DNA of 64,000 nucleotides, taken from an uncultured Ectothiorhodospiraceae bacterium. GTDB taxonomy: Bacteria > Bacteroidota > Ignavibacteria > SZUA-365 > GCA-2699105. Shown one piece after another: positions 46,696 to 63,106 of the stretch. The position numbers and the translations under genes were made by a program. The stretch covers positions 51,764-115,763 of the forward strand of contig CAYPBB010000004.1 of the NCBI GenBank assembly GCA_964408855.1. The letters are read 5' to 3'. The first letter of the stretch is position 1. The number at the start of each line of letters is the position of its first letter. The notes under the pieces were generated by a model that saw only the letters and a list, made by a program, of their open reading frames with translations, searched no databases and was not told where the DNA came from.

Positions 46696-46725
46696 AATAA
46701 AAATGGGCGCCCCGGAGGACGCCCA
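46696..46725 (-). terminator. rho-independent terminator of the T9SS nonaheme cytochrome gene
   Basis: Hairpin TGGGCGCCC-cgga-GGACGCCCA with an adjacent A-run on plus (U-run on the minus transcript), immediately downstream of the minus-strand stop at 46753. Confidence 0.5.
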
Positions 46726-46752
46726 CATATTGGATCGACGATGAGATGACGA

Positions 46753-48774
46753 TTACTTCGTCAGCACCATCTTCTTGGTCGCGCGGTAGTTGCCTGCTTC
46801 GATGCGGTAGAAGTACACGCCCGAAGGTGCAACATGCGTATCAGTGTTGGTGGTTCCGTTCCAGGCGACGCGGTATGTGCCGGCCTGGTAGAATCCGTCG
46901 ACAAGAACGTTCACGCGTTTACCGTTTGCGTCGTACACGGCGAGCTTCACGTTCGCTCCTTTCGGGACGGAGAACATGATTTCGGTGCTCGGGTTGAACG
47001 GATTCGGGAAGTTCTGTGCGAGGTTGTAGTTGTTCGGAACCGCGCCGCCGACAGGTTCAACGTTCACTTTCTTCATCTCGTCGATGGAGGCCTTCAATAA
47101 TGCTTCCGCATATTTGAAGTTGTGGACGCCGAAGCTGTTGTCGTTGTTCACAAAGTAGTAATTCCAATGAACGTCGATTTCAAGCTGCGTCTTCAGCGCA
47201 GTATCGGACGGGAATCGCGGTCTGCCGTCCGGACGGAGCTTCAGATAGCCCTTCAACTCGTCGAGAAGCGCCTTGATTTCGGTCTGCGTTTCTTCCATTT
47301 CCGTCAGCGTGACGCCGCTCGTGTGGCAGGTCTTGCAACCGGTGTTGTTCAGGACATCGTCGGTAGCATCGTTCGGAGTGTCGTTGTCATAGAGAACACG
47401 GAAGGTGTGACCGCCGAGTTTATTGTTATACTGCGCATCCTCTGGTTCCGCCATGTGGCATTCGGCGCATGCGTCGGCAATGTTGGTGTGAACCGAATTC
47501 GGGTAGCTGTAACCCGGGAATTCGCGACCGCCTTCGCCCTTCAGCATCGGTCCCTGGTGCGAAGCGTGGAGACCGCTCTGACCGGAAGGACGGATACTGT
47601 GGCAATCGGCGCACAACTGGTTTTTGGCTTTCCGCAACTGCGACGGATTTGCGTTGCTGTGCGGATCGTGGCAGGTGACGCAACCGACGTAGGCGGGATC
47701 CTTGTACGGCGCATTCGAGAAGGAAGTTTCCGGCGGATTGGCGCTCTTGACGAACACATCGAGATAGCCTGCGGATGTATGGCAGCGGGCGCAATCGCTG
47801 TTCACGTTGGTCTTGCTGCCGCGGTTCATGTATTCCGGAAGCTCTGGACCTTCATCCATCGAGTGGCTGTGCGCGGAGTTCTCGTATTCCAGAAGCGTAC
47901 GGTGGTAGGGCGGCGCATCGTGGCACTGCTTGCACGTCTCGCTCGATGCGGAAGAATAAATCTTGTTGTCGCCGGTCGGGCCGCCGTGGGCGCTGCCGGG
48001 GCCATGACACGATTCGCATTGAATGCCTGCGCGGTGCGCGAGCATAGGCGCGACGAGCTTTAACGAATCCCAGTTGCCGGCTTTCAATTCGGTTGGGAAC
48101 GTCCAACTGCTCGATTTTGCTAGATGAAGGAATCCATCGCCTTCCGCAGCCGGATTCGTGGAACCAGTGGTGTGGCAACCGAGGCAGTTTGAATTGAAAT
48201 GCCCGCCGACTTCATCAAGCCGGCGTTCCAATGCCGTTGCGTGCGCCGTCTGGTTCCATGTAGTTGCTACGGCGCTGTGGCACATAGCGCACTGCGGATA
48301 CGTCGCCGCGCCGCCGAGCATGGTGCCGACGCCGACATACTTGGCGACGTTGATCGCAAGCGTGTCCGTTCCGCCGTTCCCTTTGTTGTCCGTAGCGGTA
48401 AGCTGGATTTTATACGTTCCTTCCATGTCTGGAATGAAGAACGCGCGTTGCTGATCGATCATCGTGAACGCCGCGGTCGATCCTGCAGGCGCAGAGATGA
48501 ATGTGAATGTCGATGATGCCCAGGCTGTTGCGTCGCCGTTTGTAGCGTCGCGGGAGAATTTCCCGAAGACGCCCAAATAGACTTTTCCGCCTTTGGCGCA
48601 ATTCGGTAGACCGCTGAACGGCACATCGTACGCATCCGCAGGATCCGCAGCGACGAGGTTCGGCGATACGCCAAACGTACGGGCTTTCACAACAGCCGGG
48701 GTTAGCTGAGCATGGAGCGGCAGTGCGAAGCTCACCAGCACGGCTGCTACCAGAAATAGATGCAATGCCCTCAT
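46753..48774 (-). CDS. extracellular nonaheme c-type cytochrome with T9SS C-terminal sorting domain
   Basis: Signal peptide MRALHLFLVAAVLVSFALPLHAQ. Nine CxxCH motifs (CAMCH, CLGCH, CESCH, CKQCH, CARCH, CVTCH, CADCH, CAECH, CKTCH). C-terminal roughly 90 aa fits the T9SS CTD pattern (NFPNPFNPSTEI...VYDANGKRV...SGVYFYRIEAGNYRATKKMVLTK). Confidence 0.75.
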   Translation of the reverse strand: MRALHLFLVAAVLVSFALPLHAQLTPAVVKARTFGVSPNLVAADPADAYDVPFSGLPNCAKGGKVYLGVFGKFSRDATNGDATAWASSTFTFISAPAGSTAAFTMIDQQRAFFIPDMEGTYKIQLTATDNKGNGGTDTLAINVAKYVGVGTMLGGAATYPQCAMCHSAVATTWNQTAHATALERRLDEVGGHFNSNCLGCHTTGSTNPAAEGDGFLHLAKSSSWTFPTELKAGNWDSLKLVAPMLAHRAGIQCESCHGPGSAHGGPTGDNKIYSSASSETCKQCHDAPPYHRTLLEYENSAHSHSMDEGPELPEYMNRGSKTNVNSDCARCHTSAGYLDVFVKSANPPETSFSNAPYKDPAYVGCVTCHDPHSNANPSQLRKAKNQLCADCHSIRPSGQSGLHASHQGPMLKGEGGREFPGYSYPNSVHTNIADACAECHMAEPEDAQYNNKLGGHTFRVLYDNDTPNDATDDVLNNTGCKTCHTSGVTLTEMEETQTEIKALLDELKGYLKLRPDGRPRFPSDTALKTQLEIDVHWNYYFVNNDNSFGVHNFKYAEALLKASIDEMKKVNVEPVGGAVPNNYNLAQNFPNPFNPSTEIMFSVPKGANVKLAVYDANGKRVNVLVDGFYQAGTYRVAWNGTTNTDTHVAPSGVYFYRIEAGNYRATKKMVLTK

Positions 48775-49190
48775 TTAACCTCCGATACAATGATTTGATG
48801 GGACAAATAGAAGAACCTGTCTTCTTTTATTAAGACATGGATTTCCGAATGCAATAACGAACTGCAATACTGCAACTGCTAACTGCGCAATCCTAGAAAA
48901 ACGGCTGAAACTTTGCGTTGTGACAGTGAAATATACACAAGCCATTCTCCATTTTCCAGTAGAGCGCATCAAGAGCAATGAATAAATCATTGAACGGCAA
49001 GCCAACCCAAGCTTTTTTGTGGGAAAGAACAAGGATGAGGTGCTTGACATTTACAGTCGCTTTCGTCTTAGTGTGTAAATATTCTACATCAATATACGAA
49101 CAACGTCGTGTAACTGTCAATGAATTCTACACTTATTTCTGAAAAAAAGATGCTTTTGTATTCAGTCCGACGTGTCCCCTTTAAAACGGC

Positions 49191-49217
49191 AAAAGTGACG
49201 CAAATTGCGCCACTTTT
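49191..49217. terminator. putative bidirectional terminator hairpin downstream of the multiheme lipoprotein gene
   Basis: AAAAGTGACGCA-aat-TGCGCCACTTTT palindrome (one mismatch) flanked by an A-run and a T-run. Confidence 0.4.
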
Positions 49218-49241
49218 GATCCGATTTGTCTTTTGTTTCTG

Positions 49242-50075
49242 TTACCAGTCGGTGCGTTCCAAACCGAAAACATTCAATTTGCCGTTCACGTGCAGGTTTT
49301 TATCGATGATATTATTGTTTGCGTCCACCGTTTGAGAATGGCAATTCGAGCATGTGGACGGGAAGCTTGCGTGCTGCTGTCCTTTTGGCTTCGGATCGCC
49401 GGTTGCCGGGTTGCCGTGGCACGACCCGCACTTCGCCTGATCGGTCCCTTTCCAGGAGACTGTTGCGTTATTTCCGCCTGTAAAGTTTCCGTGGCAGTAG
49501 GTATTTGCGCAGCCCGCACCGTCCTGTTGGAAGGAGGGAGTGCCGGAAGTACCAATCGTTACGGTGTTTGCCAGTGCGATGTTCAGCACGACTTCCGCTC
49601 CGTCCGGATTGCTGCCGCCGATGTGATTCGGATCGTCGAATCCGGTTATCGCCGGGTGGCAGTTCGTGCAGACCAAATTGAGAGAGGAACTGAGGCCCTG
49701 ATCGATATGCCTGCCGTGGGTTGCATACCAATATGGATAATTGGTCCCCCGGTCGCGTTCGCCGTGGCACGTATAACACGCTTCCGGTCCGCCGTCTTCC
49801 GCCCGGTGGCATCCCGATGTTGTACAGGAAACCTTTGCGATCCCTCCTGCATAGTCCTTTCCGTGACAGGTCGTGCAATTCTCCAGACTCCAGCCGTTCG
49901 ATCGGATCACCGTTCCGTGCCAATCGGGAGACGAGGGACTCGTCATACCCGGCGGATGGATGCCGTTCAGTGCCGGCGCAATCGGAAGATCTCCCTTATC
50001 CTTTAGCTCGCTTGAACAACCGGCAATCGCAAGCATTGCGAACGCCAGTCCTGCTAGTATTACTCGTGCGTTCAT
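49242..50075 (-). CDS. multiheme c-type cytochrome lipoprotein
   Basis: Lipoprotein signal (LAIAGCSSE). Five canonical CxxCH (CTTCH, CYTCH, CTNCH, CGSCH, CSNCH) plus two Cx4CH-like motifs (CTTSGCH, CANTYCH). 277 aa. Start overlaps the upstream gene by 4 nt. Confidence 0.7.
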   Translation of the reverse strand: MNARVILAGLAFAMLAIAGCSSELKDKGDLPIAPALNGIHPPGMTSPSSPDWHGTVIRSNGWSLENCTTCHGKDYAGGIAKVSCTTSGCHRAEDGGPEACYTCHGERDRGTNYPYWYATHGRHIDQGLSSSLNLVCTNCHPAITGFDDPNHIGGSNPDGAEVVLNIALANTVTIGTSGTPSFQQDGAGCANTYCHGNFTGGNNATVSWKGTDQAKCGSCHGNPATGDPKPKGQQHASFPSTCSNCHSQTVDANNNIIDKNLHVNGKLNVFGLERTDW

Positions 50076-51151
50076 TTGTTTTCACCTCCTGCCACTCCAG
50101 TCGAATGGCAAACCATACATACCGGATCGCCTCCGTCGACATTATGGCACGTAGCGCAGTGCTGGATATCCATCGATGCAAGGCGCGCATGACGGTTCAT
50201 CGCTTTGCCGCCCGTCGCCGAAGCAAATCCGGCAAGCTGGTGCGACTGCGGCACGATCCGTTCGCCGTTTGCGTCGTACCCGTTGGTGTGGCAATCGACG
50301 CAGAAGCTCTCCTGTTCGTGACACGTTGCGCAACGGCTCGATTGAATCCGCGCATCGAATCCGTGCGTGTATTTATACGTCAGACTATGCGCCTGTTGCG
50401 AGGTAAGCATGCCGCCGTCGTCCATTTTTTCGCCGCGAGGGTAGCTACCGATATAGAAATCTGTCTTCGTCGATGGAGCCGGCACATCATTCGTCGGTGT
50501 ATGGCATTCGGCGCAGAAGCTCTGCGAGTGGCAAACCGCGCAGTCGCGGCTGTCCTCGCCGGTGAGCGCCATCTTTCCATGGAACCTGGAGAAATCGGCC
50601 ATACGGTGATTTTTTGGAAGGAGGTTCGCAAGATTGGTATGGCACGCTTCGCATTGGTTGGTTGCCACGTTCTGCTGCATGGCGTCCGCCATCGAAACAA
50701 TCGGAGCAATTTTTTCGGCATTGTTGTGACACTCATAGCATCCGTCCATCGACGGTCCGGTAAAGCTGTCGCCGGTTTGGATATGGCAGCGGGCGCATTC
50801 AAGCTTCTGCGCGTCTGCATGGAATTTATGCGAGAAACGCAGTTCGTGAGGTCTCGGTGTACCTTTCACCTCGGCAAGATCGGTCGTTGCGTCCAATCCC
50901 CAATACTTGCGCACATCCGCTTCTTCATGGCAGCTCTGGCATGCGGAAGGGCCAGGAATGAGGTTGTCTTCCGCCGATTGGCTTTCGGCTGCCGCATGGC
51001 AGTCTGCGCAGGCGGCGAGTTCCTTGTGAATCTCATGCGAGAACATCACGCCGACCTTCGTCGCATCGGCGGCGGAAGGCGAGCTTGTCAGCGACACCAG
51101 TACTATCGCGGCTACAAGCAGTGAAGCGAAAATGGAATAGTAGTATTTCAT
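50072..51151 (-). CDS. periplasmic undecaheme c-type cytochrome
   Basis: Eleven CxxCH motifs. Signal peptide beginning MKYYYSIFASLLVAAIVLV; the ORF-track start 51196 is probably an over-extension. Confidence 0.75.
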   Translation of the reverse strand: MKYYYSIFASLLVAAIVLVSLTSSPSAADATKVGVMFSHEIHKELAACADCHAAAESQSAEDNLIPGPSACQSCHEEADVRKYWGLDATTDLAEVKGTPRPHELRFSHKFHADAQKLECARCHIQTGDSFTGPSMDGCYECHNNAEKIAPIVSMADAMQQNVATNQCEACHTNLANLLPKNHRMADFSRFHGKMALTGEDSRDCAVCHSQSFCAECHTPTNDVPAPSTKTDFYIGSYPRGEKMDDGGMLTSQQAHSLTYKYTHGFDARIQSSRCATCHEQESFCVDCHTNGYDANGERIVPQSHQLAGFASATGGKAMNRHARLASMDIQHCATCHNVDGGDPVCMVCHSTGVAGGENK

Positions 51152-52479
51152 TGCGCTTCCTCCTTGGTCGACCATCCGAGAGGATCGTTGAACCAATAGT
51201 TGATCCTGAGCAAGCCGCGCGTATCCGATTTATAAATGCGGTTGCTCATGTATTGCCCCTGCAGATCGATGGAGACGATTGGGATGGGGCGGTAGGTAAG
51301 ACCGGCAATGCCTGCCCACGCCGACGTTTTTTCGAGCTTATCGGATAGGGCGTAGTTGCTGTACACGACGCCTGCATGCGGCGTGAGTTTGTTTTCAAGA
51401 AACGGATACCGGAATTCGAAATTCAGTCCGTCGAGATCTCCATCCCAGCTCATGTCCTTTGTGTACATGATGGCGGCGTATTTATGCGATGCGCCGACGG
51501 AGAACCGGTACGCCGTCGATTCAAGACCGTCGATTTCCGGATAATCGTCGCCGGCGTTGTAGATGACCGCCGAAAAACGTCCCATCAACGTGATGCGTGG
51601 ATGAATCTTGTAGTCGATGCCGAGCACCGCCTCCTGATTCGCGCTCATCTCGAGGATGGAGAAATACGAATTCCAGGCGATAGTGGGCGCACGATGGGCG
51701 AGATTCAGAGATAGCCCCAGGTTGTCCAACGCCTGGTATGTCGCCGCAACTTCGGCGCGGGAGGCCTGCTCGAAATTGAAATCGTAATCGAATCTTACGT
51801 ACAGCCAGACGTTGTCGACAAGATAGCTGACGTTCAGACTGCCGTACTGGTTGGCGCGCGAACCGTAATCGATGGTTGTGGTCACCGCCTGACCGAGCGG
51901 ATCGAGCCGCAGGGCTTCGAACGGTGTCGATTCGCGGTGCCGGTTCATGTAACTCAATCCGAGCTTCATATTCTCGACGAGGTACAACGATACCTGCGCG
52001 CCGATCTGCCAGTTGTCTTCGAGATTGTTGAAGAAATCGGTTCTCTGCGATGGGGGAGTCAACCCGCCGCCGTAGCCCATGATTTCAACGCGGTTCGATG
52101 GACGTACGCGGATAGATGCGCCGTCTACGGTCCCGTAATTGACACCGGCATACACCGCCTGCCTTCCGAGACGGAGGTCGATCATATCTGCGACGTTCTT
52201 CACATTGATGTATGCGTTGAACAACCGCAATCTTGGATCGTGATCCATCTCGGTATCGAAATCGGTCGATGCCTGCATGTAGGTGTGGAACGAAATGTCT
52301 GCCGTTCCAAAGTTGAGTTGAATGTTCTCGTATGCTCTCAGGTGCGTTGTCGACGAGTCGGTTGAAAACGAGCGTTCCCAGCCATAGACGGTCGTCACCA
52401 GCCTGCCGTTCAGGACCTGCGCCGTCGAGACGCCTGAAAGCACGACGAGAAACAGAACAACAGTACAAACCTTTTGCAT
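51148..52479 (-). CDS. putative outer-membrane beta-barrel (porin-like) protein of a porin-cytochrome conduit
   Basis: Signal peptide MQKVCTVVLFLVVLSGVSTAQ. 443 aa, rich in Tyr/Gly/Asn with alternating hydrophobic beta-strand pattern. Flanked on both sides by multiheme cytochrome genes. Confidence 0.5.
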   Translation of the reverse strand: MQKVCTVVLFLVVLSGVSTAQVLNGRLVTTVYGWERSFSTDSSTTHLRAYENIQLNFGTADISFHTYMQASTDFDTEMDHDPRLRLFNAYINVKNVADMIDLRLGRQAVYAGVNYGTVDGASIRVRPSNRVEIMGYGGGLTPPSQRTDFFNNLEDNWQIGAQVSLYLVENMKLGLSYMNRHRESTPFEALRLDPLGQAVTTTIDYGSRANQYGSLNVSYLVDNVWLYVRFDYDFNFEQASRAEVAATYQALDNLGLSLNLAHRAPTIAWNSYFSILEMSANQEAVLGIDYKIHPRITLMGRFSAVIYNAGDDYPEIDGLESTAYRFSVGASHKYAAIMYTKDMSWDGDLDGLNFEFRYPFLENKLTPHAGVVYSNYALSDKLEKTSAWAGIAGLTYRPIPIVSIDLQGQYMSNRIYKSDTRGLLRINYWFNDPLGWSTKEEAQ

Positions 52480-52544
52480 ATGTTCGTCCTTTAGTTCTGT
52501 TGACCAGAATGAGAGTTGTTAATTGCTTGAATTTGGATAACTGC

Positions 52545-52586
52545 GGGGTAAAAACAAAACAGGCGGACCCGCATGGGATCCGCCTG
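52545..52586 (-). terminator. putative terminator/attenuator downstream of tetraheme cytochrome gene
   Basis: Hairpin CAGGCGGA(CC)...(GGGA)TCCGCCTG with a U-run on the minus transcript (plus GGGGTAAAAACAAAAC). Confidence 0.4.
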
Positions 52587-52599
52587 CGGTCTAGATTGA

Positions 52600-53160
52600 C
52601 TATTTTGGCAAACCGTGCTCGATTTTCGCCCACATTTCCTTCATTTTGAAGGCTTTATATGTCGGGCTTTTTTCGTTGTGGCACTGCTTGCAATGCTTTT
52701 CGGCGCTGCCGTCGGCCACCTTGGGTAATTCCAGTCCGAGTTTCTTCGCTTCTTCAAGCTGTTCGGGTTTGTTGTGTTTCGTCTTGAACAGCGATGCAGC
52801 ACCGTGGCACGATTCGCAGCCGACGCCTTCGGCTTTGTCGAACTTCGCGTCGAACTTCGCAGCTTTTTCCATCATCCCGGTAACATGGCAACTGAGGCAT
52901 TCCGGCGTTTCGGCTGCCTTGGTTTTAAAGCCTTTGTCTGCCGCGATTTTGTCCGCAGCGGGTGTTTGAAGGGTTTTGAACGCACTGGCATGGGCGCTCG
53001 ACTCCCATTTGGCGTACACTTTACCGCCCTTGTCGGTGTTATGGCATCCTTTGCACGACTTGGCGCCGACGTATTGCGGCGAATCGGCTGGCGTGAGAGT
53101 GAATGCGCACAACGCCACAAAAACGATCGATCCGAGAATTGGCACGACGACTCGTTTCAT
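52600..53160 (-). CDS. periplasmic tetraheme c-type cytochrome
   Basis: Signal peptide. Four CxxCH (CKGCH, CLSCH, CESCH, CKQCH). 186 aa, Lys-rich. Confidence 0.8.
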   Translation of the reverse strand: MKRVVVPILGSIVFVALCAFTLTPADSPQYVGAKSCKGCHNTDKGGKVYAKWESSAHASAFKTLQTPAADKIAADKGFKTKAAETPECLSCHVTGMMEKAAKFDAKFDKAEGVGCESCHGAASLFKTKHNKPEQLEEAKKLGLELPKVADGSAEKHCKQCHNEKSPTYKAFKMKEMWAKIEHGLPK

Positions 53161-53267
53161 TTTCTCCTCGATTCATTGGTGAATGGATTATTGATTTGTG
53201 TATGTATTGCAAAAAGCAGTTGCATGGGTTCGGTATCTGGAGTCCTATGTCCTCTACTTCTATGTAT

Positions 53268-55538
53268 TTACGACTGAGGATGTTCCTTCGCGCCGTTCAC
53301 GCTTTCTTCGTCGTCGGTGATGATTGTCACATCACCGGCTTTCGCCTTCAGGCGCTCGAGTTCAAGTGGATGCTCTTCGAGCATTTCATGCTCGGTGAGG
53401 GTACCCTTGAACCAGGCGACATTCATCGGATATACGTCTGGGTTGAAGATGATAAAGTAAAAATGCCAGACGATGATAGCAAGCGTTGCGAGCCATGCTT
53501 CGTAAAAATGGATGATGGTCATGATATCGAGGAATTCCTTCGAGGTCATCGCTCCGAAAAACTCATGGAACCACAGCATCAGACCCGTCGCGCCCATCAC
53601 GATCGTGCCCCAGATCAACGCCCAGTATTCGGCTTTCTCCATATAACTGAATCTGTCGAACCTCGGCCGGTCGCCGGTTCTGCCGAGGTACCACTTGAAT
53701 GCCTGAAGCGCATCTTTCACATCTTTCCAGATAGGCAGCATATCCTTGATGAACTGTCTGCCGCGTTTGGTGGCGACCATGTACCAGATGTGATACAGCG
53801 ACGCAGCGAGCATGACGGCTCCGGCAATTCTGTGAAGAACGCCGCGCAGTTCAAACGCCGGTTCGCCGAGAATCTCGCGGATGTATACCACCCACCATGC
53901 ATTGGGGTAGGTCAATCCAAAGCCGGTGAATACGAGCAGAATGAAACTCAGTGCGAGCGTCGCGTGCTGGATTCGCTCGCTCAGCGTCATTCTCAGATAT
54001 AGATTGTGGGCAACCTCGTGCTGGTGACCTCTACGGCGGGCTTTCAGCTTTTCGAGCGCCTTCTTCCTGAAATCAAGCAGATTGTGGAAGAGCATCCCGC
54101 CGATTGTCAGTACGATGAGCAGGATGTAGATCGTCGTGATCGTGTATTGAATTCCGGATTCCTTCTCGGTGCGGACAACATGGATCGGACCTTTTGTAAA
54201 GCTCTCGGAGGCGTTCGGATGGCACTTCCCGCATGTTTGTTTCAAATTGGAGGGATGAATGCTCGACGTTGAATCGCTCGATGGTTTAATGCTATGCGCG
54301 CCGTGGCAGCTCGCGCAATTCGCTGCGACTTTCGATCCGCCCTGAACGGCGAGCCCGTGATAGCTGTCGAGATAGCTTTCTCCGGGATTCGCGACGATAC
54401 CGTATTTGTCTGCCATGCGCACCGAGTTGTGGCAGGGAAGACACACCTTCTCCGGAAGGTTGCGGCTGTTTACCGGCGATTGCTTTGAATCGACGGCAAG
54501 AATGCCGTGTTCTCCGTGGCAATCGGTACAAGATGGCGCATCGCGGACGCCGCGCGCAAGCGCCGAACCATGGATGCTCTCGTTGAATTCCGTTTTGATG
54601 GCATCGTGACATTTCCCGCATGTAGTCGGAATTTTCAGCTTGTTCACTTTCGAGTCCGCGACAGACCCGGGCGCTACTTCGTGCGCTCCGTGGCAATCGA
54701 TGCAGTTTGCAGCATCAGCATTACCGCGGTGCAGCGACATCCCGTGGATGCTATGCTCATACGCATCGATGAAACCGGCGCTTGTCGCCATGCGCGATTT
54801 CACATCGTCGTCGTTTTGATGGCATGAAAGGCAGAGTTTTTCCTGCGCAATCTTCAGGTCCAGCTTGCTCAGTCCGCTGCTGGGCGTGATCGATTTGGAG
54901 TGGCACGAAATACATGTCGGCGCGCCTTTGACATTGGCGGCGACTGCTTTCCCGTGCCACGATGCGTTGAATGTCGCGACCTCGGCGCTGTGGCATGTGC
55001 CGCACGACTTGTTCAGATTTGCGCTGGAAAATGGAGAAGCCGGGTTTTTCGGAGCGACGACATTATGTGTTCCGTGGCACTCCTTGCACGCCGATTGCAA
55101 ACGTCCGGCAGTCTTAGCGGCATTCAGCATTGAGGCGTGGAATTTGTGCGTCTGCAGCGCGTCTTTATGGCAGCTTGTACACTGCACCGGAGTGATTTTC
55201 TCTTTATGCGGCACATCGTCGGGATTGAATCCGACATGACAAGAGATACAACTCAGCTTGCTATGAGGAGAGGCTTTCAGAATCTTCGGATTGGTGTAGA
55301 GCGAAACCTCTCTCCCGTTTTTCTCCATCGTCAAATCTTTATCGTTATGGCAAGCCTGACAATCGGCGACCGATTGGGCGATACTTTGTCCGCTGAATAT
55401 CAGCAGTACCGCCGCAGACAGGAATGCCAGAAGCTGGGTCCTTTTCATCGAAGTATACCTGCTTTCGGAGCAAATCTGGCGTTTGTTAAATTCAACGTGC
55501 TTCCTTTCTGGTGTAGTATTCATGGGTTTGCGCGGCAT
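53268..55538 (-). CDS. CbcL-like fusion: periplasmic multiheme (13 CxxCH) c-type cytochrome domain plus C-terminal membrane di-heme cytochrome b (HydC/FdnI-type) domain
   Basis: Signal/anchor. Thirteen CxxCH motifs in the N-terminal roughly 430 aa. C-terminal roughly 300 aa carries 4-5 TM helices with conserved His (HNLLDF, HRIAGAV, HFYEAW, WHFYFI), as in Ni/Fe-hydrogenase / formate-dehydrogenase b-type cytochrome subunits. Confidence 0.7.
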   Translation of the reverse strand: MPRKPMNTTPERKHVEFNKRQICSESRYTSMKRTQLLAFLSAAVLLIFSGQSIAQSVADCQACHNDKDLTMEKNGREVSLYTNPKILKASPHSKLSCISCHVGFNPDDVPHKEKITPVQCTSCHKDALQTHKFHASMLNAAKTAGRLQSACKECHGTHNVVAPKNPASPFSSANLNKSCGTCHSAEVATFNASWHGKAVAANVKGAPTCISCHSKSITPSSGLSKLDLKIAQEKLCLSCHQNDDDVKSRMATSAGFIDAYEHSIHGMSLHRGNADAANCIDCHGAHEVAPGSVADSKVNKLKIPTTCGKCHDAIKTEFNESIHGSALARGVRDAPSCTDCHGEHGILAVDSKQSPVNSRNLPEKVCLPCHNSVRMADKYGIVANPGESYLDSYHGLAVQGGSKVAANCASCHGAHSIKPSSDSTSSIHPSNLKQTCGKCHPNASESFTKGPIHVVRTEKESGIQYTITTIYILLIVLTIGGMLFHNLLDFRKKALEKLKARRRGHQHEVAHNLYLRMTLSERIQHATLALSFILLVFTGFGLTYPNAWWVVYIREILGEPAFELRGVLHRIAGAVMLAASLYHIWYMVATKRGRQFIKDMLPIWKDVKDALQAFKWYLGRTGDRPRFDRFSYMEKAEYWALIWGTIVMGATGLMLWFHEFFGAMTSKEFLDIMTIIHFYEAWLATLAIIVWHFYFIIFNPDVYPMNVAWFKGTLTEHEMLEEHPLELERLKAKAGDVTIITDDEESVNGAKEHPQS

Positions 55539-55589
55539 AAGTGCGTCACCAGTATGTTATAAGATCAGTGCATTCATTGATGGAATCGG

Positions 55590-57080
55590 TCAGTTCCCGA
55601 GATGGCAATCGGAACAATTCGCGGTTTTCCATGCATCGTCGATATCCGACGGATGGTTGAACTCCATTCCGTCGAGGCTGCTTACAGGACTTGTCGCCGG
55701 TCCCTGTCTAATTATTGCATGGCAGACCGAACAGTCGTTCGATATGACCTTGCCGTCTTCCGAAACGTGCTTGTTATCGTGGCAGCGGAAACAGCCGATA
55801 TTGTACATATGCCCGATGTTGTTTGGATAGGCTTTCCAATTGACCTTCATTTCGGCGAAGAAATTCCTCGAATAAATTCTCATTATCTCCGTGATCGCGC
55901 GCTCTACATCCTGGGAGCGGGTTTTCAGGATTTCCGGAGCGCGTTCGCGGTATTCGCCGCGGATGATGTCGGGAATCTCCAAACGAGCCTGTGTTGACGT
56001 CGCGAACTCGCGGGTCATTGCATACGAAGCGATGCCTCTGATACCCGGGAGCGTAGGATCGATCTTGCCGTTCGCCATAGCGTCGTTGATTGTCCGGAAC
56101 GGCGGATAGTAGATATGAGAAGGACGGTTATGGCAGTCGATGCAATCCATTTTGCGCTTCTCGTATTTCCCGATTTCCTTCCCGGAAATCTCATGGTCCT
56201 TCGAACGGAATATCCGTACTTCGCCTTTCAGGTTCTTGCTCATGACCCAGGGGATGACCTGGCGTTTATCGTCGGACGCGATATAGGTTATTTCCTGTTC
56301 GGTATTCATATGCCAATGGATGCCTTCCGTAGGACCCAATTCGCTCTGTCCGCCGCCGATTTTAAGATCCATTTCGATGATCCACGGCACGGTTCCTGTT
56401 GTATCGATCGGGAAGTACACCTTCTTCAATTTCTTTTCGGCGGTGAATTTGCTGGGCCAGTGGCATTCCTCGCACGTTTCGCGCGCCGGACGCAGGTTGT
56501 GGACGGGCGTTTCGATTGGCCGGTGATACTTATCGAAGATGACCGAGTACACCTGGTACATACCGCTGATCTTGGCTTTGACGAACCAATCAGCGCCGGT
56601 GCCGATATGGCACTCGGCGCAGGCGACGCGGGCATGCGGGGAATGCTGGTACGCAGTATACTCGGGGTTCATGACCTCATGGCATACTTCGCCGCAGAAC
56701 TCAACCGATTCGGAATAGGTGTAGGTCTGATACATACCTGCCGCGGAGATAACGATCAGGAACATCGTTCCCACAGTGAAGATCATCACCGCCATGCGAT
56801 GGCGGGGCAGATTCAGATCGAGGTGGATGTACCGGCGCGGTTCGCCGTGGCGTTTCCGCCGCCGGCGCCGTTCCCAAAGAATACCGATAGGGATGAGGAA
56901 GAGTCCGGCAAACATGATTCCCGGAAGAATCATATACGTGAAGATCCCGAGATAGGGCGAACTGGTAAAGCCAAGCACATCCATCATGAAGAACACGAAG
57001 ATGCTGCCCAGAGTCAGGAGGGTGATTCCTACTCCGGCAAGGCTAATCGGATTGTAGACGATATCCGGCAATCTTCTCAT
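55590..57080 (-). CDS. ImcH-like inner-membrane multiheme c-type cytochrome (NapC/NirT-like quinol dehydrogenase family)
   Basis: Two or three N-terminal TM helices. Six CxxCH (CAECH, CEECH, CIDCH, CFRCH, CSVCH, CSDCH) plus one Cx3CH (CGEVCH). 496 aa. Confidence 0.6.
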   Translation of the reverse strand: MRRLPDIVYNPISLAGVGITLLTLGSIFVFFMMDVLGFTSSPYLGIFTYMILPGIMFAGLFLIPIGILWERRRRRKRHGEPRRYIHLDLNLPRHRMAVMIFTVGTMFLIVISAAGMYQTYTYSESVEFCGEVCHEVMNPEYTAYQHSPHARVACAECHIGTGADWFVKAKISGMYQVYSVIFDKYHRPIETPVHNLRPARETCEECHWPSKFTAEKKLKKVYFPIDTTGTVPWIIEMDLKIGGGQSELGPTEGIHWHMNTEQEITYIASDDKRQVIPWVMSKNLKGEVRIFRSKDHEISGKEIGKYEKRKMDCIDCHNRPSHIYYPPFRTINDAMANGKIDPTLPGIRGIASYAMTREFATSTQARLEIPDIIRGEYRERAPEILKTRSQDVERAITEIMRIYSRNFFAEMKVNWKAYPNNIGHMYNIGCFRCHDNKHVSEDGKVISNDCSVCHAIIRQGPATSPVSSLDGMEFNHPSDIDDAWKTANCSDCHLGN

Positions 57081-57126
57081 ACGTACCTCGCTTCAACACA
57101 ATGTTGAAATATTCCACTACAGTTCA

Positions 57127-57943: not shown

Positions 57944-59305
57944 TTAATCGGGGCGTTTAAGGCCGTATTTTTCGATTTTATTGTACAAGGTTACCCGGTC
58001 GATTCCGAGCCGGTCGGCGCTGCGGGTAATATTCCAATTCAGATCGTCGAGCGTTTTCATGATATGGAAGCGTTCCATGTCCGCAAGCGACTCGCTAGCG
58101 CTTTGGTTGCCTGCCGAGGAAAGCTGCATCGGAAGATGTTTCAACCGTATCGCTTCGTCGCCGCAAACGACCATGGCGCGTTCGATAGCGTTCTCCAACT
58201 CACGCACGTTGCCGGGCCATGGGTATCCAACCATCGACTCGATCGCTTCGGGAGTGATATTCCGGGACTGTTTATTCATTCTGGTTGCGTACTTTTTCAC
58301 GAAGTGCGCAGCGAGTATGGGAATGTCGCTCCTCCGGTCGCGCAGTGGGGGAACGTGAATCGCGAATACGTTAATTCTATAGTAGAGGTCTTCCCGAAAC
58401 GTACCTTCTTTCACCGCTTTTTCCAAGTCCATATTCGTCGCGCATACCAGTCTGAAGTCGACATGGATTTGTTTCTCGCCGCCGACTCGTTGAAACTGTT
58501 TGCTTTCCAGGACGCGCAGCAAATCGACTTGGGATTTCAGACTGAGCGTTCCGATTTCATCCAGAAACAGCGTTCCGCCGTTCGCCATCTCGAAGCTGCC
58601 TTTCCGGCGGTACTGCGCGCCGGTAAATGCGCCTTTCTCGTGACCAAACAGCTCGCTCTCGATAAGCGAATCAGCAAGGGCGCCGCAGTTCACCGGTATG
58701 ATCGGGAAATACTTCCGTTCGCTGTTCGAATGAATCGCTTTAGCGATCAGCTCTTTCCCGGTCCCGCTCTCGCCAAGAATCAGTACGGTAGAATCGGTGG
58801 GCGCAACCGTGCGTATCAACTCGAACACCGATTGCATTCCTGTGCTTTCGCCGATGAAATCCTCGACGTTGTGCAGCGTTTCAATCCGTTCCTTGAGCTG
58901 CACGTTTTCCTTTTTCAGCATCCGCTGATGCGCGGCGTTCCGAACCATCACCGTTAGCTCATCCGGATCCACCGGCTTCGTCACGTAATCGAAGGCGCCG
59001 GCTTTCAGCGCTCTGACAGCCGAATCCACCGCGGCGAATGCCGTGATGATGATGATGACAATCTCGCCGTCGAATTCCCTGATTCGGTCCTGCAGCGCAA
59101 GTCCGTCCATACCGGGCATCTTGATATCGAGAAGAATGATGTCGATCGTGGACTTCTGGATCAGATTCAGCGCGTCGGCGGCGTTTTCGGCAGTGCTGAC
59201 CTGATATCCTTCGTCGAGGAACCATTCGCAAAGCGACTCGCGAACGGATAGTTCGTCGTCGACGATAAGGATATGGATGGATGCGCGGTCGAGTGTTTGG
59301 TTCAT
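57944..59305 (-). CDS. sigma-54-dependent response regulator (NtrC/Fis family: REC + AAA+ sigma54-interaction + HTH)
   Basis: REC domain ([18 protein letters not shown]). Walker [15 protein letters not shown] sigma54-contact motif. C-terminal Fis-type HTH. Confidence 0.85.
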
Positions 59306-59359
59306 ATTCGTACAGTTAAGAATGAATGCCAGAGCGTGAATATCTGTATTCGGATCGCA

Positions 59360-61090
59360 TTACGATCCCTCCTGTGGACCGTCGGCTGGGAGGAGGACAC
59401 GGAATGCCGTTCCTTTCCCCAATTCGCTCATTACTTTAATATCGCCTTTGTGCCGCTTGACGATGCCGTAGACGATAGAGAGACCGAGACCTGTGCCGTG
59501 TCCGACTTCTTTTGTCGTTACGAAAGGTTCGAACAAACGCGGCAGGAGCGTTTCATCGATACCGCTGCCGTTGTCCTTGACGGTGATCTCGGCGATGGAA
59601 TGTTGGATCTCCGCGCTGATGCGGATCGTCCCTCCGTCCTGCATCGCCTCGATGCTGTTGACAACAAGCGCGATGATCATTTGCTGTATCTGATTGGCGT
59701 CGCAGACAATGGTTGTCTCCTCGCTTCTGAAATCCTGCACCAGCCGCACCATCTGCATATCGGCTTTGTGTTGAATCAGCCGCACACATTTATCGATCGT
59801 ATCCCTCAAATCGGTTTTTGTATACGAGGCCGAGTCGCTTCTGGCGAAGAACAGGAGGTTCTTCACGATATCGCCGCAGCGCTTCGCTTCGTCGGCAATG
59901 AGCGTGGAATCCTTCATGATTTTTTCGATCATTTCGGGCGTAAGTTCCATTCGGGACATTCTGCTCCTGATCAGCCGCGCATACGTAAGTATACCCGAGA
60001 GGGGATTGTTCAACTCGTGCGCGATCATCGAACTCAACTGCCCGAGCGACGCCATTTTTTCGATATGGACGACCTGCGCCTGCACCTCCTGAAGTTCGCG
60101 CGTTTTTTCTTCCACTTTCTGTTCGAGCGTGTTGGACCATTCGACAAGCTCTGCCTTTGCCGCCTTGATATCCGACGCCATTTCGTTGAACGAACGGTTT
60201 AGCATCCCAAGCTCGTTCTTTGTATCGACCGCGAGCTTGTAATCGAGGTTGCCTGCGGAGATAGCCTTTGTTCCATCGATCAGTTTCTGAACGGGGCGGT
60301 GGACGAATGAAACAATGAAGAATCCTGCGACACTGCCGACCGCGAGAAGCGAAATGAGCGCGCTTATTATGAGCATGTTGCGGCTCTTGTCGGTGTATTC
60401 GTCGACCATTTCCATGGAAAGCTGCACATCGAGAACGCCGAGGATCGTTTGGTCGGGGGTATGAACATGACAGCTTTGGTAGCACTCGCGTTCGTTCTGA
60501 ATCGGATTGATCAGTCCGAGCACCCGGTGTCCCGAAGCGGCCTCGTATACGCGCAAATACTGATCGGTCTTGGTTTTATTAAATCCGTCGCCCGAGCCGT
60601 GGCACATGGTGCAGGCGTCGGCGTCGACATCGACCACGCGACCGATTTCCGTGCTATCGGAGCTATACCGGATTACTCCGGCTTTGTCGTACACCCGGAT
60701 GCGTTCGGTACCCTTGGTCTTTCCCAGATCCATGATAGTGAATGCAATGGATTCGATGTCGTTGTGCTGCATGCCATAGCGCAACGACCGCTTGGTCATT
60801 TCCGAAGTGCGCTCGGCGCAACCTTCAACGGCCTTCGAAAAGTACCGCATTTCGGAGGTAACATTATAATAGGTAGTAATGGACAGTACCAGTACCAGAG
60901 CCAGTACAAGGAGGATGATTATTTTGAAACTCAGCGACTGATACAGTTTCATCGTTCCGTCCATAATAAAGGACATTCCCGTCTGTAAAGTAGTAAAGAA
61001 AAGCGCCTTTTTCAAGGCGCTGTAAAAAAAATCAACAACATTATTGCATGCCGTAATAAATACGCTGAAAATCCCTATGTTTTTCGCCAC
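59360..61090 (-). CDS. sensor histidine kinase with periplasmic domain carrying c-type heme-binding motifs
   Basis: TM, roughly 170 aa periplasmic segment, second TM, HAMP-like linker, coiled coil, HisKA (H-box IAHELNNPL), HATPase (G-boxes). The periplasmic segment contains CTMCH (CxxCH) and CYQSCH (Cx3CH). True start may be an internal Met near 60952. 16-nt overlap with the upstream gene. Confidence 0.8.
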   Translation of the reverse strand: MAKNIGIFSVFITACNNVVDFFYSALKKALFFTTLQTGMSFIMDGTMKLYQSLSFKIIILLVLALVLVLSITTYYNVTSEMRYFSKAVEGCAERTSEMTKRSLRYGMQHNDIESIAFTIMDLGKTKGTERIRVYDKAGVIRYSSDSTEIGRVVDVDADACTMCHGSGDGFNKTKTDQYLRVYEAASGHRVLGLINPIQNERECYQSCHVHTPDQTILGVLDVQLSMEMVDEYTDKSRNMLIISALISLLAVGSVAGFFIVSFVHRPVQKLIDGTKAISAGNLDYKLAVDTKNELGMLNRSFNEMASDIKAAKAELVEWSNTLEQKVEEKTRELQEVQAQVVHIEKMASLGQLSSMIAHELNNPLSGILTYARLIRSRMSRMELTPEMIEKIMKDSTLIADEAKRCGDIVKNLLFFARSDSASYTKTDLRDTIDKCVRLIQHKADMQMVRLVQDFRSEETTIVCDANQIQQMIIALVVNSIEAMQDGGTIRISAEIQHSIAEITVKDNGSGIDETLLPRLFEPFVTTKEVGHGTGLGLSIVYGIVKRHKGDIKVMSELGKGTAFRVLLPADGPQEGS

Positions 61091-61866: not shown

Positions 61867-61911
61867 TGTGTCCTCCCAGTAGTAGGTACTGGAATTATTG
61901 AGTTACGCATG

Positions 61912-63096: not shown

Positions 63097-63106
63097 GGCA
63101 TCCTCC

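What the first reader, a model, noticed from the sequence alone, without database searches (positions are those of the whole stretch)
46753..57080. Roughly 10 kb extracellular-electron-transfer style gene cluster: ImcH-like, CbcL-like fusion, tetraheme, porin candidate, 11-heme and lipoprotein multihemes, plus a T9SS-sorted nonaheme
Seven consecutive minus-strand genes read, in transcription order, as follows:
1. An inner-membrane NapC/NirT-type 7-heme cytochrome (ImcH-like).
2. A multiheme-c/cytochrome-b fusion (CbcL-like).
3. A soluble tetraheme.
4. A 443-aa beta-barrel candidate.
5. An 11-heme periplasmic cytochrome.
6. A multiheme lipoprotein, followed by a hairpin terminator.
7. A separately terminated nonaheme with a type IX secretion C-terminal domain.

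Together these form a complete putative inner-membrane quinol oxidase, periplasmic relay, porin-cytochrome conduit and cell-surface cytochrome pathway. This is the architecture described for Geobacter/Shewanella metal reduction, here assembled from different families and ending in a T9SS cargo. I count at least 58 canonical c-type heme motifs across the cluster.
Basis: partly seen in the sequence, partly recalled or inferred. Interest (0 to 1): 0.75.

Follow-up and report, generated by a model that had tools for sequence, protein, structure and literature searches.

The report
Ignavibacteria-type extracellular electron transfer gene cluster
Seven neighbouring genes of an uncultured Ignavibacteria-like bacterium appear to encode a complete chain of haem proteins that carries respiratory electrons from the inner membrane, through an outer-membrane pore, to the cell surface. 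Most of it is a kind already recognised in genomes. The part that seems undescribed is the last cytochrome, which is exported by the type IX secretion system.

Summary
- **g1** has every published sequence feature of ImcH: 496 aa, 3 TM helices, CX3CH plus six CXXCH, and a NapC/NirT region.
- **g2** is a CbcL/MtoC-type fusion of 13 c-haems with a dihaem cytochrome b domain.
- **g3-g6** code for a c554-like tetrahaem, a 443-aa protein, an 11-haem periplasmic cytochrome and a 5+2-motif lipoprotein cytochrome. They are the orthologue of the Ignavibacterium album pcc cluster IALB_1839-1837 (Shi 2014). This four-gene module is present in 68 of 80 related loci.
- **g4** is modelled with confidence (pLDDT 87) as a plug-less outer-membrane barrel of about 22 strands.
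- **g7** is a nonahaem. Its closest solved relatives are the cell-surface Fe(III)/electrode reductases OcwA and OmhA of Gram-positive bacteria. Here that core is fused to a type IX secretion C-terminal domain. 119 of its 120 closest relatives carry the same domain.

Corrections:
- The cluster has 48 canonical CXXCH plus 3 atypical motifs, not 58 or more.
- A third terminator-like hairpin follows g3.
- Only a few lineages have all modules together.

No catalytic CXXCK motif is present. The function is inferred, not shown. The pcc, ImcH and CbcL parts are known kinds. A T9SS-delivered OcwA-type terminal cytochrome returned no paper in six full-text searches.

The parts
55590..57080 (-). g1: ImcH-type inner-membrane heptahaem quinol oxidase candidate. 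496 aa; TM helices 14-32, 50-68 and 96-114; CX3CH at 129 plus six CXXCH.
   Evidence: Pfam Cytochrom_NNT 38.9 bits at aa 94-187. The family is very large, about 497 aa long, and 48-73% identical among the 120 best hits. Features match the ImcH descriptions in PMC4251993 and PMC6295460.
53268..55538 (-). g2: CbcL/MtoC/MtrH-type fusion. Periplasmic 13-haem c domain plus a C-terminal dihaem cytochrome b (HydC/FdnI-like) membrane domain. A signal peptide starts at M31 (nt 55448), so that may be the true start.
   Evidence: Pfam Ni_hydr_CYTB 68.3 bits at aa 516-700. TIGR01583 56.9 bits, below its cut-off. His 485, 525, 569, 583, 677, 692 and 723 are invariant in 19/19 orthologues, which carry 13-18 haems (one shorter ORF of 537 aa has 6).
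52600..53160 (-). g3: periplasmic cytochrome c554-like tetrahaem (electron relay).
   Evidence: Pfam Cytochrome_C554 62.2 bits. PDB 1bvb, N. europaea c554, E 2e-10. Four CXXCH in 73 of 74 orthologues, directly upstream of the porin gene in 74 of 80 loci.
52559..52587 (-). Terminator-like hairpin (12-bp GC-rich stem plus UUUUGUUUUU) between g3 and g4.
   Evidence: -24.9 kcal/mol, z -3.7. Not conserved: Ignavibacteriales have a 24-58 nt g3-g4 gap in most loci, without a hairpin.
51148..52479 (-). g4: outer-membrane beta-barrel of about 22 strands, without a plug domain. The porin of the porin-cytochrome module.
50072..51151 (-). g5: Sec-exported 11-haem periplasmic cytochrome. Its start overlaps the g4 stop by 4 nt. 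Proposed to insert into the g4 barrel.
   Evidence: Orthologues carry 14 haems in 55 loci and 11 in 15 loci. The I. album orthologue is 399 aa with 14 motifs, matching IALB_1838 of Shi 2014.
49242..50075 (-). g6: lipoprotein multihaem cytochrome (lipobox IAG-C20; 5 CXXCH plus 2 CX4CH). Proposed outer-face partner of the conduit.
   Evidence: TIGR01904 GSu_C4xC__C2xCH 47.9 bits. Atypical motifs as reported for IALB_1837. Lipobox found in 55 of 73 orthologues, more with a relaxed search (66 with lipobox-like matches).
49190..49218 (-). Terminator-like hairpin (13-bp stem) followed by a U-rich tract, after g6.
   Evidence: 80-nt stretch -21.6 kcal/mol, z -3.25. Not picked up by the consensus scan.
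49091..49120 (-). Sigma-70-like promoter match (TTGACA-18-TATATT, 11/12) about 310 nt upstream of the g7 start. A consensus match only.
   Evidence: The number of such sites in the region is not above the shuffled expectation.
46753..48774 (-). g7: T9SS-sorted OcwA/OmhA-like nonahaem cytochrome. Signal peptide; N-terminal beta domain (aa 28-143, nt 48346-48693); nonahaem core with three-helix bundle (aa 160-580, nt 47035-48297); type A CTD (aa 584-673, nt 46756-47025).
46703..46726 (-). Intrinsic-terminator-like hairpin after g7.
   Evidence: -24 kcal/mol, z -3.7.
57944..61090 (-). Candidate regulators upstream. A sensor histidine kinase (59360-61090) with two c-haem motifs in its periplasmic domain, and a sigma-54-dependent response regulator (57944-59305). 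The link to the cluster is inferred from position only.
   Evidence: The RR plus M54 peptidase sit upstream of the ImcH gene in L081 as well. HK homologues lie near the pcc cluster in 7 of 80 loci. No sigma-54 consensus upstream of g1.

Best explanation
The locus encodes an extracellular electron transfer (EET) pathway of the porin-cytochrome type, in an uncultured Ignavibacteria-related (FCB-group) bacterium. It has three modules.

1. **Inner membrane.** Two alternative quinol oxidases, an ImcH-type heptahaem (g1) and a CbcL/MtoC-type 13-haem-c/dihaem-b fusion (g2), take electrons from the menaquinol pool into the periplasm.
2. **Periplasm and outer membrane.** A c554-like tetrahaem (g3) relays electrons to the 11-haem cytochrome g5. 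g5 sits inside the plug-less barrel g4 of about 22 strands and contacts the lipoprotein cytochrome g6 on the outer face. This is the Ignavibacteria version of the Geobacter Pcc / Shewanella MtrAB(C) conduit.
3. **Cell surface.** The nonahaem g7 has a core homologous to the Gram-positive surface reductases OcwA and OmhA. It would be exported by Sec, loaded with haem and folded in the periplasm, then moved across the outer membrane and anchored or released by the type IX secretion system through its C-terminal domain. There it serves as terminal reductase for insoluble or extracellular acceptors such as Fe(III)/Mn(IV) oxides, humics, electrodes or partner cells.

**Shown here (computationally):** gene content, motif counts, topology signals, domain families, predicted folds, orthology and synteny.

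**Inferred:** complex formation, the order of carriers, outward direction of electron flow, T9SS export of a holo-cytochrome, and the physiological acceptor.
For: - **Motifs and topology.** 48 CXXCH plus 3 atypical motifs in six of the seven genes, against one motif in the rest of the window. g1 has 3 TM helices, then CX3CH, then six CXXCH, plus a NapC/NirT region. That is the published ImcH signature (PMC4251993; PMC6295460). g2 has 13 c-haems and a Ni_hydr_CYTB domain with invariant His.
- **The cytochrome partners.** g5 has a Sec signal and g6 a lipobox. The 4-nt overlaps g4/g5/g6 suggest co-translation.
- **Synteny.** g3-g4-g5-g6 is conserved in 68 of 80 loci, including I. album, where it is the published pcc cluster IALB_1839-1837. 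Members of the class, such as M. roseus, reduce Fe(III) and carry the pcc system.
- **T9SS.** The CTD scores above the Pfam and TIGRFAM cut-offs and is modelled as a beta-sandwich matching solved T9SS CTDs. A second T9SS cargo lies in the same window. CTD-bearing multihaem genes lie within 10 kb of the pcc porin gene in 10 of 83 loci, from several lineages.
- **Whole arrangement.** It is conserved in a 71%-identical relative (L081), with the same flanking genes, and largely in L073.
Against: - There are no expression, biochemical or genetic data for this or any orthologous Ignavibacteria cluster.
- I. album carries the pcc cluster but was reported unable to use Fe(III)/Mn(IV) oxides (PMC4245776).
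- Three terminator-like hairpins (after g3, g6 and g7) suggest up to three transcription units.
- g1 lies next to the pcc module in only 2 of 80 loci, g2 in 17, and a g7-like CTD cytochrome in 10 of 83. The modules are therefore separable.
- g4 has no detectable sequence-family link to the Geobacter or Shewanella porins (no Pfam or NCBIfam hit).
- Direct comparison with GSU3259 (ImcH) and GSU0274 (CbcL) was not possible.
- OcwA also reduces nitrite and hydroxylamine slowly, and its two distal His-His motifs align with YH and SH in g7 (read from the alignment).
- The direction of electron flow cannot be read from sequence.
Confidence: 0.62

Rival explanations
1. The same hardware runs inward. 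The conduit takes electrons from extracellular donors (Fe(II), reduced humics, cathodes, syntrophic partners), and g2 acts as a quinone reductase.
For: CbcL/MtoC/MtrH homologues occur in both Fe(III) reducers and Fe(II) oxidisers, and porin-cytochrome conduits are reversible in principle (PMC6295460; PMC4245776). I. album has the pcc cluster but does not reduce Fe(III) oxides.
Against: ImcH homologues were found only in Fe(III)-reducing bacteria (PMC6295460 abstract), and g1 heads this cluster. The closest characterised relatives of g7 are reductases. No Cyc2- or MtoA-type marker was seen.
Confidence: 0.12
2. The cytochromes serve respiration or detoxification of soluble nitrogen or sulfur compounds (nitrite, hydroxylamine, sulfite, tetrathionate) rather than EET. 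On this reading g7 is an NrfA/ONR/MccA-like enzyme and g3 its c554-like partner.
Against: There is no CXXCK and no CX15CH in g7. PF02335 is not detected in g7. OcwA and 6qvm match far better than any catalytic reductase. Export to the outside by T9SS, and an adjacent porin plus lipoprotein-cytochrome module, make little sense for a soluble periplasmic substrate. OcwA's nitrite turnover is only 1 per minute.
Confidence: 0.08
3. The seven genes are neighbours but not one pathway. g3-g6 is the conserved conduit. g1, g2 and g7 are independent respiratory genes that happen to lie nearby in this lineage.
For: Terminator-like hairpins follow g3, g6 and g7. g1 is adjacent in 2 of 80 loci, g2 in 17, and g7-like genes in 10 of 83. 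The closest GTDB relatives (L001-L016, 49-61% porin identity) mostly show only g3-g6 within 10 kb.
Against: The full arrangement, with the same flanking genes, recurs in L081 (71% porin identity). L073, at 33% porin identity, also has g1, g2, g3, g4, g5, g6 and a g7-like gene together. T9SS cytochromes sit immediately next to g3 in several Ignavibacteriales loci. A conduit needs a quinol oxidase and benefits from a surface reductase.
Confidence: 0.15

Closest known systems
Ignavibacterium album pcc cluster IALB_1839 (porin-like), IALB_1838 (periplasmic c-Cyt), IALB_1837 (outer-membrane c-Cyt), from Shi, Fredrickson & Zachara 2014 (PMC4245776); also reported for Melioribacter roseus and Ignavibacteriales MAGs (PMC6137239, PMC7399161)
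   Same: g4, g5 and g6 are orthologues in the same order (33-38% identity to the I. album locus L025). The porin-like protein has no family hit. The periplasmic multihaem protein follows it. The lipoprotein cytochrome has atypical CX3-4CH motifs. A c554-like tetrahaem gene precedes the porin gene in both.
   Different: g5 has 11 haems here against 14 in IALB_1838 and most Ignavibacteriales. This lineage has about 53% GC, a long g3-g4 spacer with a hairpin, and ImcH-, CbcL- and T9SS-cytochrome genes joined to the cluster. None of these was described for I. album.
Geobacter sulfurreducens EET chain: ImcH (GSU3259) and CbcL (GSU0274), then periplasmic cytochromes, then Pcc conduits (OmaB-OmbB-OmcB, ExtABCD and others)
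   Same: The logic and architecture are the same: a 3-TM heptahaem with a leading CX3CH; a multihaem-c/cytochrome-b fusion; and a porin with a periplasmic multihaem protein and a lipoprotein multihaem protein. g6 carries the Geobacter CX4CH...CXXCH domain.
   Different: In Geobacter imcH is monocistronic, and the genes are scattered. CbcL has 9 c-haems, against 13 here. The periplasmic carrier here is c554-like rather than PpcA-like. The terminal surface cytochrome here is OcwA-like and T9SS-sorted rather than OmcS/OmcZ/OmcE filaments or lipoproteins. Sequence homology of the porins was not demonstrated.
OcwA of Thermincola potens (PDB 6I5B), and the S-layer undecahaem of Carboxydothermus ferrireducens (PDB 6QVM, probably OmhA)
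   Different: Those proteins are from monoderm Firmicutes, attached to the cell wall or S-layer. g7 is from a diderm. It has an extra N-terminal beta domain and a T9SS CTD. OcwA's two distal His-His motifs align with Tyr-His and Ser-His, so open-coordination haems are uncertain.
Shewanella MtrCAB plus CymA, with MtrC/OmcA exported by the type II secretion system
   Different: MtrB has 26 strands, against about 22 here. The surface cytochrome is a lipoprotein exported by T2SS, not a T9SS cargo. The g7 core is NrfA/c554-type rather than the MtrC staggered cross (OcwA paper).

Membership tests
ImcH (inner-membrane cytochrome H) | Three N-terminal transmembrane helices | tested here: met
   Hydropathy peaks at 14-32, 50-68 and 96-114. 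Definition from PMC4251993 and PMC6295460.
ImcH (inner-membrane cytochrome H) | [quoted passage not shown] | tested here: met
   CGEVCH at 129, then CXXCH at 154, 203, 313, 430, 450 and 489; 496 aa.
ImcH (inner-membrane cytochrome H) | NapC/NirT homology covering TM3 and the first haem motifs | tested here: met
   PF03264 38.9 bits (cut-off 24.1) at aa 94-187.
ImcH (inner-membrane cytochrome H) | Sequence similarity to G. sulfurreducens GSU3259 (31-49% reported for non-Geobacter homologues) | not testable with these tools
   The GSU3259 sequence could not be obtained. The 120 best hits of 8000 were all closer FCB relatives.
CbcL/MtoC/MtrH | N-terminal periplasmic domain with 3-23 CX2CH motifs | tested here: met
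   13 CXXCH between aa 60 and 440. Orthologues carry 13-18; one shorter ORF has 6.
CbcL/MtoC/MtrH | C-terminal HydC/FdnI-like b-type cytochrome membrane domain with conserved haem-ligand histidines | tested here: met
   PF01292 68.3 bits at aa 516-700. H525, H569, H583, H677 and H692 are invariant in 19/19.
CbcL/MtoC/MtrH | Usually six (4-6) transmembrane helices in the C-terminal half | tested here: inconclusive
   A simple hydropathy scan finds clear peaks only at about 466-484, 526-544 and 672-698. No dedicated TM predictor was available.
Porin-cytochrome (Pcc) gene cluster | Porin-like outer-membrane beta-barrel protein | tested here: met
Porin-cytochrome (Pcc) gene cluster | [quoted passage not shown] | tested here: met
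   g5 has a signal peptide and 11 CXXCH. g6 has lipobox IAG-C and 5+2 motifs. The genes overlap by 4 nt.
Porin-cytochrome (Pcc) gene cluster | Orthology to a published pcc cluster (I. album IALB_1839-1837) | tested here: met
   L025 (I. album MAG) has the same gene order. Its g5 orthologue is 399 aa with 14 motifs, as published for IALB_1838.
Porin-cytochrome (Pcc) gene cluster | The three proteins form a trans-outer-membrane complex that conducts electrons | not testable with these tools
   This needs purification and proteoliposome assays.
OcwA/OmhA-type surface multihaem reductases (NrfA/c554 superfamily) | Nonahaem core: c554-like tetrahaem plus NrfA-like pentahaem plus C-terminal three-helix bundle | tested here: met
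OcwA/OmhA-type surface multihaem reductases (NrfA/c554 superfamily) | Distal His-His motifs over five-coordinate haems 2 and 5 | tested here: inconclusive
   Read from the HMMER alignment: the OcwA HH pairs align with Y290-H291 and S405-H406 of g7. Only the second His is kept. Haem coordination cannot be predicted here.
T9SS type A cargo | N-terminal Sec signal plus C-terminal type A sorting domain (Por_Secre_tail / TIGR04183) with a beta-sandwich fold | tested here: met
T9SS type A cargo | The organism has a T9SS machinery (SprA/Sov, PorV, PorU and others) | not tested
   No T9SS component gene was identified in the window. A second CTD-bearing protein (17685-20303) indicates that the system is in use.
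NrfA / MccA catalytic multihaem reductases (considered and rejected) | Catalytic haem motif CXXCK (NrfA) or CX15CH with a Cu site (MccA) | tested here: not met
   No CXXCK in any of the seven proteins, and no CX15CH in g7. PF02335 is absent from g7 and scores 17.7 bits (cut-off 24.1) in g1.

The most novel reading that the evidence does not exclude
In the FCB superphylum the type IX secretion system is the export and anchoring route for terminal EET cytochromes. A coherent family of OcwA-type nonahaem cytochromes is haem-loaded in the periplasm, passed folded through the T9SS translocon, and attached to the cell surface. This search found at least 355 sequence clusters of the family, in Ignavibacteria, Bacteroidota, Latescibacteria, Calditrichota and KSB1, and 119 of the 120 closest carry the CTD. 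On the surface the cytochrome would receive electrons from the Ignavibacteria-type porin-cytochrome conduit. It would be the diderm counterpart of the Gram-positive wall cytochromes OcwA/OmhA, and a functional replacement for the T2SS-exported MtrC/OmcA.
Probability: 0.45. Interest if true: 0.72.

Novelty: new variant of a known kind. Interest (0 to 1): 0.55.

Why it matters
Ignavibacteria and their relatives are common in sediments, aquifers, hot springs, anammox reactors and anode biofilms. Their role in iron and humic redox cycling rests on genome inference only.

This locus gathers a whole candidate pathway in about 10 kb: two quinol oxidases, a relay, a conduit and a surface reductase, with a haem-sensor two-component system next to it. 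That makes it a compact target for heterologous or genetic tests.

The T9SS-sorted OcwA-like cytochrome links two fields that the searchable literature does not connect. If confirmed, it would show:
- how FCB bacteria place redox proteins on their surface;
- that holo-multihaem proteins belong among T9SS cargo;
- that the OcwA/OmhA family is a cross-phylum terminal reductase rather than a Gram-positive speciality.

It would also give a better marker set for predicting EET in metagenomes: the pcc porin family together with CTD-bearing nonahaem proteins.

Tried and rejected
- **Sigma-54 promoter.** I searched for TGGCAC-N5-TTGC upstream of g1, because a sigma-54 activator lies upstream. There was no site in the 57081-57378 spacer, and matches window-wide were not above chance.
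- **Rfam.** A scan of the whole window at gathering thresholds gave no hit. The 310-nt leader of g7 and the spacers hold no known RNA family.
- **Retrieving Geobacter ImcH through the homologue search of g1.** This failed, because the 120 listed hits were all closer FCB relatives. Direct comparison with GSU3259 and GSU0274 therefore remains undone.
- **Conservation of the hairpin after g3.** It is not conserved: a hairpin was found in 6 of 73 g3-g4 gaps, and Ignavibacteriales have very short gaps. I do not treat it as a defining feature.
- **The 15-bp tandem repeat upstream of g1.** It is not conserved in the 71% relative, so I left it as a side note.
- **PDB sequence searches for g5 and g6.** These gave only weak generic multihaem matches (ACIII ActA, c7-like) or none.
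- **Literature.** Six full-text searches combining T9SS or type IX secretion with multiheme, multi-heme, multihaem, cytochrome plus EET, or iron reduction all returned zero papers. The M. roseus multi-omics paper does not mention these genes.
- **Rejected readings.** g4 as helical or cytoplasmic. g7 as NrfA or MccA. An MtrC-family assignment for g7: the Pfam domain II/IV hit exists, but the OcwA-type core fits far better.

Full report
**Observation**

The region 46753-57080 holds seven consecutive minus-strand ORFs, as described. In transcription order:

| Gene | Coordinates | Size | Motifs and signals |
|---|---|---|---|
| g1 | 55590-57080 | 496 aa | CX3CH at residue 129 plus six CXXCH |
| g2 | 53268-55538 | 756 aa | 13 CXXCH |
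| g3 | 52600-53160 | 186 aa | 4 CXXCH |
| g4 | 51148-52479 | 443 aa | no haem motif |
| g5 | 50072-51151 from the ATG | 359 aa | 11 CXXCH; same start called on two 99%-identical metagenome contigs |
| g6 | 49242-50075 | 277 aa | 5 CXXCH plus 2 CX4CH |
| g7 | 46753-48774 | 673 aa | 9 CXXCH |

The total is 48 canonical motifs plus 3 atypical ones. The same 48 is obtained by counting over all three minus-strand frames of the region.

The enrichment itself is not in doubt. The other roughly 40 ORFs of the 64-kb window contain one CXXCH in total. GC content is even across the region, at 0.51-0.55.

**The two inner-membrane proteins**

g1 has three hydrophobic helices (14-32, 50-68, 96-114), directly followed by CGEVCH and then six CXXCH. 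Pfam places a NapC/NirT region over residues 94-187, at 38.9 bits against a cut-off of 24.1.

These are the features by which ImcH was defined: three TM helices, seven motifs of which the first is CXXXCH, and NapC/NirT homology (PMC4251993). A later survey recognised homologues by the same features, at 495-519 aa, with 3 TM helices, an atypical CX3CH next to the TM domain and six CX2CH. It reported three homologues in Ignavibacteriae (PMC6295460).

The family is very large and uniform in length, with at least 8000 hits. The 120 best are 48-73% identical and about 497 aa long. I could not obtain GSU3259 for a direct alignment.

g2 combines 13 c-type motifs with a C-terminal prokaryotic cytochrome b561/FdnI-type domain (PF01292, 68.3 bits). 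In 19 orthologues His 525, 569, 583, 677 and 692 are invariant, and the c-haem number is 13-18, apart from one shorter ORF with 6. This is the CbcL/MtoC/MtrH architecture, for which 3-23 motifs and 416-1034 aa are reported. A plausible signal peptide begins at Met31.

**The conduit module**

g4 has no Pfam or NCBIfam hit. It has 142 database relatives and 286 encoded relatives among GTDB species genomes. The 80 best loci are nearly all labelled Ignavibacteria, Melioribacteraceae or 'Bacteroidota' MAGs, with a few other labels.

The mature protein is all barrel, with no plug domain.

- g5 has a Sec-type N-terminus and 11 haems.
- g6 has the lipobox IAG-C20 and carries the Geobacter CX4CH...CXXCH domain (TIGR01904, 47.9 bits).
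- g4/g5 and g5/g6 overlap by 4 nt.
- g3 is a cytochrome c554 homologue (Pfam 62.2 bits; PDB 1bvb E 2e-10).

**Synteny**

In 80 loci fetched around g4 homologues, 68 contain g3-g4-g5-g6 in this order. Eleven of the other twelve lack only g3 or g6, and several of those loci end at a contig edge.

- g3 orthologues have four haems in 73 of 74 loci.
- g5 orthologues have 14 haems in 55 loci and 11 in the 15 loci of the window's own clade.
- g6 orthologues have 6+1 or 5+2 motifs.

The locus from an Ignavibacterium album MAG (L025) has a 399-aa, 14-haem g5 orthologue. That matches IALB_1838, described as 400 aa with 14 motifs, in the pcc cluster IALB_1839/1838/1837 of Shi et al. 2014. That paper also notes atypical motifs in IALB_1837, and that these proteins are only distantly related to the Geobacter groups (PMC4245776).

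Later metagenomic papers report 'Geobacter-like pcc' systems in Ignavibacteriales MAGs and in M. roseus, which reduces Fe(III) (PMC6137239; PMC7399161). The core of the finding is thus a new member of an already recognised, though never experimentally tested, gene cluster.

The accessory genes are less constant.
- g2 is adjacent in 17 of 80 loci.
- g1 is adjacent in only 2 (L040, L073).
- CTD-bearing multihaem genes are adjacent in 10 of 83 loci.

The whole arrangement does recur, with identical flanking genes: a sigma-54 regulator and M54 peptidase upstream, and MsrA, YCII and squalene/phytoene synthases downstream. It appears in a 61-kb metagenome contig whose porin is 71% identical (L081). 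There it is expanded by a split CbcL-like set and a second T9SS cytochrome.

**The surface cytochrome**

g7 carries a type A T9SS sorting domain above both curated thresholds (PF18962 32.9/27; TIGR04183 39/23).

A profile of 57 family members hits two solved structures far better than any others:
- 6I5B, E 5e-36;
- 6QVM, E 9e-29.

Octahaem nitrite reductase, NrfA and MccA follow at 1e-13 to 1e-9.

6I5B is OcwA, the nonahaem cell-surface terminal reductase of Thermincola potens. It is built from a c554-like tetrahaem module, an NrfA-like pentahaem module and a three-helix bundle (PMC6703420). 6QVM is deposited as the S-layer undecahaem of Carboxydothermus ferrireducens. Its 681 residues match the OmhA gene of PMC7829351, the dominant surface cytochrome during ferrihydrite reduction. 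No text links the PDB code to that name.

The AF2 model of g7 (pLDDT 90.8, pTM 0.80) shows:
- a signal helix;
- an N-terminal beta domain (28-143);
- a loop-rich haem core;
- three long helices (490-570);
- a C-terminal beta-sandwich (584-671).

No CXXCK or CX15CH motif is present. OcwA's two distal His-His motifs align with Tyr-His and Ser-His in g7, so whether g7 has open-coordination haems is unknown.

Of the 120 closest relatives, 119 end in the CTD and 94 have nine CXXCH. Source names span Ignavibacteria, Bacteroidota, Latescibacteria, Calditrichaeota and KSB1. The window also encodes a second CTD protein, a heparinase II/III-like enzyme at 17685-20303.

**Transcription signals**

Terminator-like hairpins with U-tracts follow three genes:
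- g3, at 52559-52587 (-24.9 kcal/mol);
- g6, at 49190-49218;
- g7, at 46703-46726.

A sigma-70-like match lies about 310 nt upstream of g7, but such matches are not enriched over shuffles. The cluster may therefore be read as g1-g3, g4-g6 and g7.

**Mechanism proposed**

1. Menaquinol is oxidised by g1 or g2. By analogy with Geobacter these may serve acceptors of different potential; this is inference.
2. Electrons pass through g3 to g5.
3. g5 occupies the g4 barrel and contacts lipoprotein g6.
4. g7, exported folded and haem-loaded by the T9SS and attached or released at the surface, reduces extracellular acceptors.

The steps rest on family assignments, predicted localisation and synteny. 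None has been shown experimentally. The direction of flow and the acceptor are open, and I. album was reported not to reduce Fe(III)/Mn(IV) oxides.

**Novelty**

Pcc clusters, ImcH and CbcL homologues in Ignavibacteriae are published genomic observations. I found no paper that links T9SS with multihaem cytochromes or EET. Six full-text searches returned zero papers. Gavrilov et al. do remark that OcwA falls in a clade of nonahaem proteins from Gram-negative bacteria.

I therefore rate the locus as a new variant of a known kind. The conduit is ordinary. It is coupled to an OcwA-type terminal cytochrome that is a T9SS cargo.

Noticed in passing
window 57132-57183: A 15-bp tandem repeat, 3.5 copies (unit CAGGTGCATTCTTCG on the + strand), lies 52-103 nt upstream of the g1 start codon. 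It could be an array of regulator binding sites. It is not conserved in the 71% relative L081.
   Followed up: partly
window 57944-61090 (- strand): The sensor histidine kinase (59360-61090) has a CXXCH (aa 160) and a CX3CH (aa 203) between its two TM helices. This suggests a c-haem redox-sensing periplasmic domain. A sigma-54-dependent response regulator follows it (57944-59305). No sigma-54 promoter consensus was found upstream of g1. HK homologues sit near the pcc cluster in 7 of 80 loci.
   Followed up: partly
window 61075-63862 (- strand): An NrfD-like membrane protein (61912-63096), a 4Fe-4S protein without an obvious Tat signal (63107-63862) and a Cys-rich GcvH-like protein (61075-61866) lie together. 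NrfD- or 4Fe-4S-like genes also lie near the pcc cluster in L014, L017, L040 and L073 (both genes in L014, L017 and L073). An NrfCD pair was proposed as a quinol oxidase feeding periplasmic multihaem cytochromes in M. roseus (PMC3534657). This may be a third quinone-linked module.
   Followed up: partly
window 17685-20303 (- strand): A second predicted T9SS cargo in the same window: an 872-aa heparinase II/III-like protein with a Por_Secre_tail CTD (35.3 bits).
   Followed up: no
L081 6313-9190 and 13885-18561: The 71%-identical relative carries three extra genes between the CbcL-like and c554-like genes: a 233-aa cytochrome, a 443-aa cytochrome and a 283-aa cytochrome b. This looks like a split CbcL-like unit. 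It also has two tandem T9SS nonahaem genes (673 and 696 aa).
   Followed up: no
window 50072-51151, and g5 orthologues in L001-L080: The periplasmic conduit cytochrome has 14 CXXCH in 55 loci (typical Ignavibacteriales, as IALB_1838) but 11 in the 15 loci of the window's clade. That is a lineage-specific loss of three haems.
   Followed up: partly
window 49242-50075 (g6 N-terminus) and orthologues: After the lipidated Cys, orthologues conserve S-[D/E]-x-x-x-D. D/E occurs in 62% at +3 and 77% at +7. This is reminiscent of the acidic lipoprotein export signal that sends Bacteroidota lipoproteins to the cell surface (recalled from memory, not tested).
   Followed up: partly
window 24001-28000: A stretch of lower GC (0.44-0.48, against about 0.53 elsewhere) contains a 647-aa ORF (24855-26798) with no Pfam hit. 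It may be foreign DNA.
   Followed up: no
window 48775-49241: A 467-nt spacer lies between g6 and g7. It has a hairpin, a strong sigma-70-like hexamer pair (49091-49120) and a leader of about 310 nt before g7. No Rfam family matches.
   Followed up: partly
window 57379-57933 (- strand): An M54 (archaemetzincin-like) peptidase gene sits between the response regulator and g1. The same position is conserved in L081. Any relation to the cytochrome cluster is unknown.
   Followed up: no
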